Positions 39,896 through 40,723 of a DNA stretch of 64,000 nucleotides are shown in pieces. The notes under the pieces were generated by a model. That model was not told the DNA's origin. It made no database searches and saw only the letters and a list, made by a program, of their open reading frames with translations. A program made the translations under genes and the position numbers. The stretch's first letter is position 1; every line of letters begins with the position of its first letter. Location: the sequence record MW341595; one strand, written 5' to 3'. The stretch is from Shigella phage Sfk20.

Positions 39896-39971
39896 TGGTC
39901 GAGGCAGTAGGGATCGAACCTACGACCTAGGACTTAGAAGGTCCTTGCTCTTCCTTCTGAGCTATGCCTCG
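39896..39971 (-). tRNA. tRNA-Arg (anticodon UCU)
   Basis: 76 nt cloverleaf; acceptor CGAGGCA/UGCCUCG, anticodon stem AGGAC/GUCCU, loop CUUCUAA, T-arm GUAGG-UUCGAUC-CCUAC, CCA encoded. Confidence 0.9.
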
Positions 39972-39975
39972 GATT

Positions 39976-40050
39976 TGGCGGACGTGATAGGATTCGAACC
40001 TATAACCAATCGCTTAACAGGCGATCGCTCTGCCATTGAGCTACACATCC
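39976..40050 (-). tRNA. tRNA-Asn (anticodon GUU)
   Basis: 75 nt; acceptor GGAUGUG/CACGUCC, D-arm GCUC-AAUGGCA-GAGC, anticodon stem AUCGC/GCGAU, loop CUGUUAA, T-arm AUAGG-UUCGAAU-CCUAU, CCA encoded. Confidence 0.88.
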
Positions 40051-40054
40051 AAAT

Positions 40055-40141
40055 TGGTGGGGAGTGATGGAGTCGAACCACCCGAGTCGCAATGACAATG
40101 GATTTACAGTCCACACCGCTACCTCTACGGGATAACTCCCC
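40055..40141 (-). tRNA. tRNA-Tyr (anticodon GUA), long variable arm
   Basis: 87 nt; acceptor GGGGAGU/ACUCCCC, anticodon stem-loop GUGGA-CUGUAAA-UCCAU, ~15 nt variable arm, T-arm GGUGG-UUCGACU-CCAUC, CCA encoded. Confidence 0.85.
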
Positions 40142-40150
40142 AAATTAATT

Positions 40151-40225
40151 TGGTGGCCCTGGGTGGAATTGAACCACCATCTGGCGATTATGAGTCGCTT
40201 GCTTGAACCTTCCAGCTACAGGGCC
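40151..40225 (-). tRNA. tRNA with anticodon CAU (Ile2/Met type; T4 tRNA-Ile equivalent)
   Basis: 75 nt; acceptor GGCCCUG/CAGGGCC, anticodon loop CUCAUAA, T-arm GGUGG-UUCAAUU-CCACC, CCA encoded. Confidence 0.85.
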
Positions 40226-40226
40226 T

Positions 40227-40302
40227 TGGTGCTGATTGACGGAATCGAACCGCCGACCTTCTCATTACAAGTGAGTTGCTCTACCTACTGAGCTAAATCA
40301 GC
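40227..40302 (-). tRNA. tRNA-Thr (anticodon UGU)
   Basis: 76 nt; acceptor GCUGAUU/AAUCAGC, D-arm GCUC-AGUAGGUA-GAGC, anticodon loop CUUGUAA, CCA encoded. Confidence 0.88.
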
Positions 40303-40307
40303 AAAAC

Positions 40308-40397
40308 TGGCGGAGGCGATAGGATTTGAACCTATGAGTCGCCGGAGCGACTGCCGGTTTTCAAGACCGGTGCATTAAACCACTCTGCCACGCCTCC
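40308..40397 (-). tRNA. tRNA-Ser (anticodon UGA), long variable arm
   Basis: 90 nt; acceptor GGAGGCG/CGCCUCC, anticodon stem-loop CCGGU-CUUGAAA-ACCGG, long variable arm, T-arm AUAGG-UUCAAAU-CCUAU, CCA encoded. Confidence 0.88.
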
Positions 40398-40399
40398 AG

Positions 40400-40473
40400 T
40401 CTCCATACAAGGATTTGAACCTTGGACCTCCTGATCCCAAATCAGGCGCTCTACCAAACTGAGCTACACGGAG
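40400..40473 (-). tRNA. tRNA-Pro (anticodon UGG)
   Basis: 74 nt; acceptor CUCCGUG/UAUGGAG (two G-U pairs), anticodon stem-loop CCUGA-UUUGGGA-UCAGG, T-arm CAAGG-UUCAAAU-CCUUG, CCA not encoded. Confidence 0.85.
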
Positions 40474-40483
40474 TAAATTAAAT

Positions 40484-40557
40484 TGGAGCGGATAATGAGA
40501 ATCGAACTCACATCATCAGATTGGAAGTCTGAGGTAATGCCATTATACGATATCCGC
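40484..40557 (-). tRNA. tRNA-Gly (anticodon UCC)
   Basis: 74 nt; acceptor GCGGAUA/UAUCCGC, anticodon stem-loop UCAGA-CUUCCAA-UCUGA, CCA encoded. Confidence 0.85.
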
Positions 40558-40562
40558 AAATT

Positions 40563-40649
40563 TGGTGCGAGAAGTGGGACTCGAACCCACAAGGAAATCA
40601 TTCCGCAGCATTTTAAGTGCTGTGCCTTTACCAATTTGACCATTCTCGC
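40563..40649 (-). tRNA. tRNA-Leu (anticodon UAA), long variable arm
   Basis: 87 nt; acceptor GCGAGAA/UUCUCGC, anticodon stem-loop CAGCA-CUUAAAA-UGCUG, T-arm GUGGG-UUCGAGU-CCCAC, CCA encoded. Confidence 0.88.
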
Positions 40650-40650
40650 G

Positions 40651-40723
40651 CTGGGAATAAAGGACTCGAACCTTTGCATCCTGGAATCAAAATCCAGTGC
40701 CTTACCAACTTGGCTAATTCCCA
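40651..40723 (-). tRNA. tRNA-Gln (anticodon UUG)
   Basis: 73 nt; acceptor UGGGAAU/AUUCCCA, anticodon stem-loop CUGGA-UUUUGAU-UCCAG, T-arm AAAGG-UUCGAGU-CCUUU, CCA not encoded. Confidence 0.85.

What the first reader, a model, noticed from the sequence alone, without database searches (positions are those of the whole stretch)
39896..40723. Ten-gene tRNA array including tRNA-Tyr and tRNA-Asn, with no ORF inside the cluster
I folded ten tRNAs by hand on the minus strand: Gln, Leu, Gly, Pro, Ser, Thr, CAU (Ile2/Met), Tyr, Asn, Arg, separated by only 1-10 nt. T4 is established to encode eight (no Tyr or Asn) and, as I recall, carries the segB homing endonuclease gene inside its tRNA region. Here the Tyr and Asn genes occupy the interval between the CAU tRNA and tRNA-Arg and there is no endonuclease ORF. 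Both extra tRNAs have perfect stems and canonical T-loops, so they look functional.
Basis: seen in the sequence. Interest (0 to 1): 0.6.

Follow-up and report, generated by a model that had tools for sequence, protein, structure and literature searches.

The report
Known T2/RB3-type phage tRNA cluster
This is a real cluster of ten transfer-RNA genes in a T4-like phage, but the same arrangement was described in phages T2L, RB1 and RB3 in 2008 and is annotated in hundreds of sequenced relatives, so it is ordinary.

Summary
ARAGORN and Rfam both call ten minus-strand tRNA genes at 39896-40723: Gln, Leu, Gly, Pro, Ser, Thr, CAU, Tyr, Asn, Arg. Spacers are 0-10 nt, and nothing in the window resembles SegB. 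It is not new. Phage RB3 has the identical ten-gene order, with Tyr, Asn and CAU 100% identical. T2 has the same CAU-Tyr-Asn-Arg block. 377 phage records hold at least 80% of that block. Brok-Volchanskaya et al. 2008 described this segB-less allele and mapped the preferred SegB homing site inside its tRNA-Asn gene. The flanking CAU and Arg genes are also non-T4 alleles (65% and 70% identity), so a four-gene cassette replaces T4's Ile-segB-Arg. The ten codons most enriched relative to an E. coli sample are all read by this array. The tRNA-Tyr is 97.7% identical to the T6 tRNA-Tyr shown in 2026 to counter Septu immunity. Verdict: already known, low interest.

The parts
40650..40723 (-). tRNA-Gln (UUG). 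CCA is not encoded. The anticodon arm is a different allele from T4's.
   Evidence: ARAGORN; Rfam 67.4 bits. 89% identical to T4, with all differences at positions 27-43 and all stem changes compensatory.
40563..40649 (-). tRNA-Leu (UAA), CCA encoded
   Evidence: 100% identical to T4
40484..40557 (-). tRNA-Gly (UCC), CCA encoded
   Evidence: 98.6% identical to T4
40399..40473 (-). tRNA-Pro (UGG), CCA not encoded
   Evidence: 100% identical to T4
40308..40397 (-). tRNA-Ser (UGA). CCA is encoded (CCAG), as reported for T2L; the T4 gene lacks it.
   Evidence: PMC2330249 states that the T2L and T4 Ser sites differ only by CCAG
40227..40302 (-). tRNA-Thr (UGU)
   Evidence: 96.1% identical to T4
40151..40225 (-). 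CAU tRNA, T2/RB3 allele; most likely tRNA-Ile2 (lysidine, reads AUA). First gene of the replacement cassette.
   Evidence: 100% identical to T2 and RB3, 65% to T4 Ile, 77% to E. coli ileX with an identical 15-nt anticodon stem-loop. It has C4:G69 and C5:G68, the positions E. coli TilS uses as identity elements (PMC11947777). ATA is 5-fold enriched in the window and ATG is not.
40055..40141 (-). tRNA-Tyr (GUA), class II with a long variable arm, A73, CCA encoded
   Evidence: ARAGORN; Rfam 30.2 bits. 100% identical to RB3, 98.9% to T2, 97.7% to T6, 72% to E. coli tyrT. Its variable arm is identical to those of T6, a 109-kb plasmid and T5-like Bf23.
39976..40050 (-). tRNA-Asn (GUU), G73, CCA encoded
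   Evidence: 74.1 bits. 100% identical to T2 and RB3, 63% to E. coli asnT.
39975..40000 (-). SegB recognition motif inside the 3' part of tRNA-Asn (GGTTCGAATCC...CCAA). This corresponds to the preferred SegB homing site mapped in T2L.
   Evidence: Motif search, using the consensus GGTTCRANTCC...CCAR from PMC2330249. The gene is identical to T2's and RB3's. The exact 27-bp boundaries were not available, and cleavage was not tested.
39896..39971 (-). tRNA-Arg (UCU), T2/RB3 allele, not the T4 gene
   Evidence: 98.7% identical to T2 and RB3, 70% to T4, 78% to E. coli argU.
39529..39879 (-). 116-aa ORF of unknown function between tRNA-Arg and rnaD. Present in T2 and BW-1, absent in T4 and RB3.
   Evidence: phrog_3355 E 6e-53, no Pfam match; annotated CDS at the same position in BW-1 and T2
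39418..39530 (-). Homolog of T4 rnaD (species 2 stable RNA); conserved ends, divergent middle
   Evidence: 78.5% identical to T4 rnaD, 74.8% to RB3 rnaD; blastn
39273..39411 (-). Homolog of T4 rnaC (species 1 stable RNA) with a tRNA-like 3' end
   Evidence: 98.6% identical to T4 rnaC and 100% to RB3 rnaC over 139 nt
39199..39222 (-). Terminator-like hairpin (10 pairs, 7 G-C, followed by TTTTT); the probable end of the stable-RNA operon
   Evidence: This is a consensus scan only: 3 sites were found against 2.5 expected from shuffles.

Best explanation
This is the tRNA/stable-RNA operon of a Tequatrovirus (T-even phage) in its segB-free, T2L/RB1/RB3-type allelic form. Six genes (Gln, Leu, Gly, Pro, Ser, Thr) are orthologs of the T4 genes. 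A four-gene cassette (CAU tRNA, Tyr, Asn, Arg-UCU) occupies the position where T4 has Ile-segB-Arg. A 116-aa ORF, rnaD, rnaC and a terminator-like hairpin follow. By analogy with T4 (inferred, not shown here), the array is transcribed as a polycistronic precursor and cut by host RNase P and 3'-processing enzymes. Gln and Pro lack an encoded CCA and would need the host CCA-adding enzyme. The tRNAs most likely top up the host pool for the A/U-ending codons that this 35%-GC genome over-uses, including AAU (Asn), UAU (Tyr), AUA (read by the CAU tRNA after lysidine modification) and AGA (Arg). They may also replace host tRNAs destroyed by immune nucleases, which has been shown for the near-identical T6 tRNA-Tyr against Septu. 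The tRNA-Asn gene carries the preferred cleavage site of the T4 homing endonuclease SegB. In a co-infection with T4, this cassette is the allele expected to be cut and converted to the T4 form.
For: The closest record, Escherichia phage BW-1 (Tequatrovirus, 98.9% identical), is annotated with the same ten tRNAs. RB3 (KM606994) has the identical order followed by rnaD and rnaC. T2 has the same CAU-Tyr-Asn-Arg block plus the 116-aa ORF. Homology with T4 runs at 96% over 40206-40829 and 89.6% over 39190-39529, with no match between them. 377 phage records hold at least 80% of the cassette, against 126 for T4's Arg-segB-Ile block. PMC2330249 states that T2L, RB1 and RB3 lack segB and carry tRNA Met/Tyr/Asn/Arg plus ORFs, that the preferred SegB site is a 27-bp sequence in tRNA-Asn, and that a T4 x T2L cross excludes about 1250 bp. 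In the codon analysis, the ten most enriched codons versus an E. coli K-12 sample (AGA 9.5x, ATA 5.0x, TCA, GGA, AAT 3.5x, ACT, ACA, TTA, TCT, TAT 2.5x) are all read by the array. AAT has the largest absolute excess of any codon. PMC13096335 shows that T6 tRNA-Tyr rescues infection from Septu, and that T4, which lacks Tyr, cannot escape.
Against: There are no expression or processing data for this phage. tRNA-Tyr barely passes the Rfam cutoff, and the T6 homolog was reported to be relatively unstable. The identity of the CAU tRNA (Ile2 or Met) is inferred; most GenBank records label it Met. Promoter assignment is weak, since the consensus scan found 13 sites against 10 expected. The codon comparison used 70 mechanically called ORFs against 42 host genes, not expression-weighted sets. 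Codon supply and anti-defence roles cannot be separated by sequence alone.
Confidence: 0.9

Rival explanations
1. The accessory tRNAs (Tyr and Asn, plus His in 11-tRNA relatives) are primarily an anti-defence cassette rather than a codon-supply device. They replace or outnumber host tRNAs cleaved by immune nucleases: Septu or retron-Eco7 PtuAB for Tyr, and PARIS AriB for Asn and Thr.
For: T6 tRNA-Tyr, 97.7% identical to the window's, counters Septu, and a T6 tRNA-region deletion is more sensitive (PMC13096335). The window's Tyr variable arm is identical to that of T5-like Bf23, and the T5 tRNA-Tyr variable loop is reported to confer resistance to retron-Eco7. This Tyr family is spread at 84-96% identity across unrelated phages and a 109-kb plasmid, but is only 72% identical to host tyrT. 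AriB cleaves host Asn(GUU) and Thr(UGU) at U36AAUC|N41 (PMC12409363). The window's Asn reads UAAGCG and its Thr UAAUGA at those positions. His codons are not enriched (CAT 0.93x, CAC 0.33x), yet many relatives carry His in this cassette.
Against: AAT and TAT are among the most over-used codons, so codon supply alone suffices as an explanation. Septu also cleaves the T6 tRNA-Tyr, and rescue needed overexpression or amplification. The loss of U39 in three phage or plasmid Asn genes has a chance probability of about 0.4. Nothing was tested for this Asn. The two roles are not mutually exclusive.
Confidence: 0.35
2. The CAU gene is an elongator tRNA-Met, as most GenBank annotations and the Discussion of the 2008 paper call it, rather than tRNA-Ile2.
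For: ARAGORN and most records label it Met. Overall identity to E. coli metT (75.4%) is close to that for ileX (77.3%).
Against: The 15-nt anticodon stem-loop is identical to ileX's, and the alignment to metT needs several gaps. The gene has C4:G69 and C5:G68, as ileX does, whereas metT has U4 and A5. These are the positions E. coli TilS uses as identity elements. ATA is 5-fold enriched while ATG is at 0.86x. The gene occupies the position of T4's tRNA-Ile(CAU). SV76 and the Methods of the 2008 paper call it Ile.
Confidence: 0.15
3. Tyr and Asn are decaying or non-functional tRNA-like relics.
For: Tyr has a marginal covariance score (30.2 bits). The T6 homolog was reported as relatively unstable.
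Against: Both genes are 100% conserved between the window and RB3. Relatives show compensatory stem substitutions, for example the plasmid Tyr at 94% identity. T6 tRNA-Tyr is expressed and biologically active.
Confidence: 0.03

Closest known systems
tRNA gene region of phages RB3/RB1 (AJ884578/AJ884577; KM606994) and T2L/T2 (AJ880101; AP018813), described by Brok-Volchanskaya et al. 2008, NAR 36:2094
   Same: RB3 has the same ten genes in the same order. Tyr, Asn and CAU are 100% identical and Arg is 98.7% identical. There is no segB. rnaD and rnaC lie downstream. The 116-aa ORF after Arg and the 174-aa ORF before Gln are shared with T2.
   Different: RB3 has rnaD directly after Arg, with no 116-aa ORF, and has no 174-aa ORF upstream. 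T2 has an ORF in place of tRNA-Thr (nine tRNAs) and the T4-type Gln anticodon arm. The window is therefore a mosaic of RB3-type and T2-type features, shared with BW-1 and others.
Phage T4 tRNA region (NC_000866 70.9-72.5 kb) with the GIY-YIG homing endonuclease gene segB
   Same: The genomic position is the same (between the trna.2-4/ipI genes and the e.x genes). Gln, Leu, Gly, Pro, Ser and Thr are 89-100% identical. rnaC is 98.6% identical.
   Different: T4 has Ile-segB-Arg where the window has CAU'-Tyr-Asn-Arg'. The CAU and Arg genes are different alleles (65% and 70% identity). T4 tRNA-Ser lacks the encoded CCA. T4 has no ORF between Arg and rnaD.
Phage T6 tRNA-rich region (tRNA-Tyr next to segB), an anti-Septu locus (Chihara et al. 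2026, Nat Commun 17:3468)
   Same: tRNA-Tyr is 97.7% identical, with an identical variable arm.
   Different: T6 has segB and the T4-type Ile and Arg genes, and it lacks Asn, Pro and Ser. The window has no segB, so SegB-driven tandem amplification of Tyr is not available to it in cis.
T5-family phage tRNAs that neutralise retron-Eco7 (Tyr) and PARIS (Lys, Thr, Asn)
   Same: The tRNA-Tyr of T5-like Bf23 shares the variable arm and T arm exactly (about 85% identity overall). The window's Asn, like the Bf23 Asn, lacks U39 of the AriB motif.
   Different: These belong to a different phage family, with a much larger tRNA set interspersed with ORFs. The Asn genes are not closely related. No Lys tRNA is present in the window.

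Membership tests
tRNA (Rfam RF00005) | The cloverleaf covariance model scores at or above the gathering cutoff (29 bits), and an independent tRNA finder makes the same call | tested here: met
   All ten pass. Nine score 59-74 bits and Tyr scores 30.2. ARAGORN calls all ten with the stated anticodons.
T-even (Tequatrovirus) tRNA/stable-RNA operon | Conserved genomic position, shared orthologous tRNA genes, and rnaC/rnaD downstream | tested here: met
   The flanks match T4 trna.2, trna.3 and trna.4 at 90-97%. Six tRNAs are 89-100% identical to T4's. rnaC is 98.6% and rnaD 78.5% identical. The closest records are Tequatrovirus.
segB-less T2L/RB1/RB3-type allele (Brok-Volchanskaya 2008) | segB is absent | tested here: met
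   tblastn of T4 SegB against the whole window gives a best E of 0.18. No ORF longer than 86 aa lies in the array.
segB-less T2L/RB1/RB3-type allele (Brok-Volchanskaya 2008) | The CAU(Met/Ile)-Tyr-Asn-Arg isoacceptor block replaces T4's Ile-segB-Arg | tested here: met
   98.7-100% identical to the RB3 and T2 genes, in the same order.
segB-less T2L/RB1/RB3-type allele (Brok-Volchanskaya 2008) | The preferred SegB cleavage site lies in tRNA-Asn and is actually cleaved | not testable with these tools
   The sequence is identical to T2 and RB3 tRNA-Asn and matches GGTTCRANTCC...CCAR. Cleavage itself needs an enzyme assay.
tRNA-Ile2 (lysidine-modified CAU) | CAU anticodon plus the E. coli TilS identity base pairs at 4:69 and 5:68, as in ileX | tested here: met
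   The gene has C4:G69 and C5:G68, and its anticodon stem-loop is identical to ileX's. metT has U4 and A5. The determinant positions come from PMC11947777.
tRNA-Ile2 (lysidine-modified CAU) | C34 is converted to lysidine and the tRNA is charged with isoleucine | not testable with these tools
   This needs mass spectrometry or an aminoacylation assay.
Anti-defence phage tRNA (counter to Septu / retron-Eco7 / PARIS) | Sequence equivalence to a phage tRNA shown experimentally to rescue infection | tested here: met
   This holds for Tyr only: 97.7% identical to T6 tRNA-Tyr with an identical variable arm. No tested homolog of this Asn was found.
Anti-defence phage tRNA (counter to Septu / retron-Eco7 / PARIS) | Rescue of this phage from a tRNA-cleaving defence system | not testable with these tools
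   This needs plaque assays on hosts that carry the defence systems.

The most novel reading that the evidence does not exclude
The CAU'-Tyr-Asn(-His)-Arg' cassette is a mobile anti-defence module. On this reading its tRNAs are maintained because they differ from host tRNAs at the sites cut by immune nucleases. The Tyr has the T5/T6-type variable arm, relevant to PtuAB-type systems. The Asn and Thr are altered at the PARIS AriB motif. The Gln carries a swapped anticodon arm. SegB homing in T4 would then have replaced a defence-relevant cassette, making T4 more vulnerable than its relatives.
Probability: 0.25. Interest if true: 0.45.

Novelty: already known. Interest (0 to 1): 0.1.

Why it matters
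The finding has little importance as a discovery. The ten-gene array is a published and widely annotated allele of the T-even tRNA operon. Its value is as context. It shows that T4, the reference phage, carries the derived allele invaded by a homing endonuclease, while the Tyr/Asn-containing form is about three times more common among sequenced relatives (377 records against 126). It also places this genome among the natural targets of SegB homing. Finally, it carries a tRNA-Tyr of the type recently shown to matter against Septu immunity, which is useful to know if the phage is considered for host-range or therapy work.

Tried and rejected
1. I asked whether Tyr and Asn were recently captured from the host. 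They were not: identity is only 72% to E. coli tyrT and 63% to asnT. The best hits in 5,426 E. coli genomes were 109-kb plasmids carrying their own tRNA sets, not chromosomal genes.

2. I asked whether those plasmids share the whole CAU-Tyr-Asn module. They do not. Only the Tyr gene is homologous (94%). The neighbouring genes are an unrelated Asn and a Thr.

3. I asked whether the 10-tRNA form arose from the 11-tRNA form by recombination between long repeats. The overlap in the blast output reflects only short similarity at the junction (CCAAAT and CCAATT), not a substantial repeat.

4. I asked whether the two flanking ORFs (116 aa and 174 aa) are homing endonucleases. There is no Pfam match, and the only PHROG families they hit have unknown function.

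5. The promoter scan was uninformative: 13 sites were found against 10 expected. Two TTTACA-17-TACTAT sites with an upstream TG (42245..42217 and 42575..42547) are candidates for early promoters, but they remain unverified.

6. A literature search for papers on T4-like tRNA-Tyr or tRNA-Asn codon usage returned nothing relevant.

7. The loss of U39 from the AriB motif in phage Asn genes is too weakly supported to count as evidence (n=3, chance about 0.4).
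Full report
**Observation**

ARAGORN finds ten tRNA genes in the 64-kb window. All are on the minus strand between 39896 and 40723. In order of transcription they are Gln(UUG), Leu(UAA), Gly(UCC), Pro(UGG), Ser(UGA), Thr(UGU), a CAU tRNA, Tyr(GUA), Asn(GUU) and Arg(UCU). Spacers are 0-10 nt. Rfam's tRNA model calls all ten at its curated cutoff. Nine score 59-74 bits, and Asn scores highest at 74.1. Tyr scores only 30.2 bits against a cutoff of 29, and in a permissive scan it was out-competed by the tRNA-Sec model at 34.4 bits. 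This probably reflects its long variable arm and 3-bp D stem, though I did not test that cause. ORFs inside the array are short, overlap the tRNAs and are unannotated in relatives. T4 SegB has no homolog anywhere in the window.

**What genome this is**

The 1.5 kb around the array matches 946 phage records. The best is Escherichia phage BW-1 (Tequatrovirus) at 98.9%, and it is annotated with the same ten tRNAs. The flanks match T4 trna.2, trna.3 and trna.4 at 90-97%. By my own reading of the translations, gene 57B, 57A and gene 1 lie further upstream. This is the classical T-even tRNA region.

**Comparison with T4**

The difference is larger than two inserted genes, however.

- Window-to-T4 homology runs at 96% from upstream of Gln to 20 nt into the CAU tRNA (40206-40829). 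It then disappears and resumes at 39529 (89.6%), where T4 has rnaD and rnaC.
- Gene by gene, Leu, Pro and Ser are 100% identical to T4's, Gly 98.6%, Thr 96.1% and Gln 89%.
- The CAU tRNA is only 65% identical to T4 tRNA-Ile, and the Arg(UCU) only 70% identical to T4 tRNA-Arg.

A four-gene cassette, CAU'-Tyr-Asn-Arg', therefore stands where T4 has Ile-segB-Arg. A 116-aa ORF that T4 lacks follows it.

**This allele is already described**

- RB3 (KM606994) has exactly the same ten genes in the same order, followed by annotated rnaD and rnaC.
- T2 (AP018813) has CAU-Tyr-Asn-Arg and the same 351-bp ORF after Arg. An ORF replaces its Thr gene.
- The window's CAU and Asn are 100% identical to both T2's and RB3's. 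Its Tyr is 100% identical to RB3's and 98.9% to T2's. Its Arg is 98.7% identical to both.
- Brok-Volchanskaya et al. 2008 (PMC2330249) sequenced the tRNA regions of T2L, RB1 and RB3 and reported that they lack segB.
- For T2L they reported four extra tRNA genes (Met, Tyr, Asn, Arg) and two ORFs of unknown function in place of segB and its flanking tRNA genes.
- They mapped the preferred SegB site to a 27-bp sequence inside tRNA-Asn. The consensus is GGTTCRANTCC followed by a degenerate stretch and CCAR.
- They also showed that T4 x T2L crosses convert about 1250 bp to the T4 form in a segB-dependent way.
- The window's Asn gene carries GGTTCGAATCC...CCAA at 40000-39975.

The allele is common. 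377 phage records hold at least 80% of the 330-nt cassette, with or without an extra tRNA-His plus a 113-bp spacer between Asn and Arg. By comparison, 126 records hold T4's Arg-segB-Ile block. T6 is a further mosaic: Tyr-segB with T4-type Ile and Arg.

Downstream of tRNA-Arg lie four features:

- the 116-aa ORF at 39529-39879 (phrog_3355, unknown function, no Pfam match);
- an rnaD homolog at about 39418-39530 (78.5% identical to T4, with conserved ends);
- an rnaC homolog at 39273-39411 (98.6% to T4, 100% to RB3);
- a terminator-like hairpin at 39222-39199.

'No ORF inside the cluster' is therefore true for the ten tRNAs but not for the stable-RNA transcription unit as a whole.

**How it most likely works**

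*Shown here.* The genes are intact tRNAs. Eight encode CCA, and Gln and Pro do not. They diverge from host tRNAs at 63-78% identity. The codons they read are the ones this 35%-GC genome over-uses. Comparing 70 window ORFs with 42 annotated E. coli K-12 genes, the ten codons with the highest enrichment are AGA (9.5x), ATA (5.0x), TCA, GGA, AAT (3.5x), ACT, ACA, TTA, TCT and TAT (2.5x). Every one is read by a tRNA of this array. This takes the CAU tRNA as Ile2 and assumes cmo5U-type wobble, recalled from E. coli tRNA biology rather than checked here, so that the UGA and UGU anticodons also read UCU and ACU. AAT has the largest absolute excess of all codons (48 per 1000 against 14), and TAT has the fourth largest.

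*Inferred from T4 knowledge.* Polycistronic transcription, processing by RNase P and 3' trimming, and CCA addition by host enzymes are all assumed by analogy with T4.

**Identity of the CAU tRNA**

It is most likely tRNA-Ile2, for four reasons:

- Its 15-nt anticodon stem-loop is identical to E. coli ileX's.
- It has C4:G69 and C5:G68 as ileX does, whereas metT has U4 and A5. These are the positions E. coli TilS uses as identity elements (PMC11947777).
- ATA is 5-fold enriched while ATG is not.
- It occupies the slot of T4's tRNA-Ile.

Most database records nevertheless call it Met.

**A second, non-exclusive role in anti-defence**

Chihara et al. [quoted passage not shown] They also showed that T6 tRNA-Tyr overexpression or segB-driven amplification rescues infection, and that T4, which lacks Tyr, cannot escape.

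The window's Tyr is 97.7% identical to T6's. Its variable arm and T arm are identical to those of T6, of a 109-kb E. coli plasmid and of T5-like Bf23, and differ from host tyrT. This Tyr family is spread across unrelated coliphages at 84-96% identity.

For Asn the evidence is only suggestive. PARIS AriB cleaves host Asn(GUU) and Thr(UGU) at U36AAUC|N41 (PMC12409363). The window's Asn reads UAAGCG and its Thr UAAUGA at those positions. With three phage Asn genes compared, the pattern is not statistically meaningful.

His, which many relatives carry in this cassette, reads codons that are not enriched. Codon supply does not explain its presence.

**Verdict**

The finding is real and correctly read. 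It is an already-known allele of a textbook locus, published in 2008 and annotated in hundreds of genomes. Novelty is 'already known' and interest is low. The most novel reading still open is that the cassette is maintained mainly as an anti-defence module. This is established only for the Tyr homolog in T6.

Noticed in passing
window 40650-40723 (-), positions 27-43 of tRNA-Gln: tRNA-Gln is identical to T4's outside the anticodon arm, but the 17-nt anticodon arm is a different allele. The window, BW-1, UGKSEcP2 and RB3 have CUGGA-UUUUGAU-UCCAG. T4 and T6 have UAGCA-CUUUGAC-UGCUA. There are 8 differences, and all stem changes are compensatory. The window's loop equals the host glnU loop. This looks like an anticodon-arm swap within an otherwise fixed gene.
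   Followed up: partly
window 39273-39530 (-): Homologs of the T4 stable RNAs rnaC (species 1; 98.6% to T4, 100% to RB3) and rnaD (species 2; 78.5%, conserved ends and divergent middle) are present. BW-1, UGKSEcP2 and T2 do not annotate them, and Rfam has no family that matches.
   Followed up: partly
window 39529-39879 (-) and 40810-41334 (-): Two ORFs of unknown function bracket the tRNA array: 116 aa (phrog_3355) and 174 aa (phrog_2290). Both are present in T2 and BW-1 and absent from T4, RB3 and T6. The region is therefore a mosaic of independently varying segments.
   Followed up: partly
L002 (UGKSEcP2) 1878-2066; absent from the window between 39971 and 39976: Many close relatives carry an extra tRNA-His plus a 113-bp spacer between Asn and Arg, giving eleven tRNAs. 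The spacer contains an inverted repeat, TGTGACA-AC-TGTCACA. His codons are not enriched in the window's genes.
   Followed up: partly
L013 (E. coli plasmid pEC881_2, 109 kb) 1154-1400; also phage records of about 137 kb: A tRNA-Tyr 94% identical to the window's, with compensatory D-stem and anticodon-stem changes, sits in an Asn-Tyr-Thr array on 109-kb E. coli plasmids. Tyr plus the CAU tRNA occur at about 96% identity in phages of about 137 kb, possibly Vequintavirus-like (taxonomy not checked). This indicates exchange of these tRNA genes between unrelated mobile elements.
   Followed up: partly
window 37981-38544 (-) and 38671-39144 (-); repeats at 38626-38666 and 39186-39225: Two tandem paralogous ORFs (187 aa and 157 aa, both phrog_2280, unknown function) lie downstream of the stable-RNA operon. 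Each is preceded on its coding strand by a copy of a roughly 40-nt repeat. The 39186-39225 copy contains the terminator-like hairpin.
   Followed up: no
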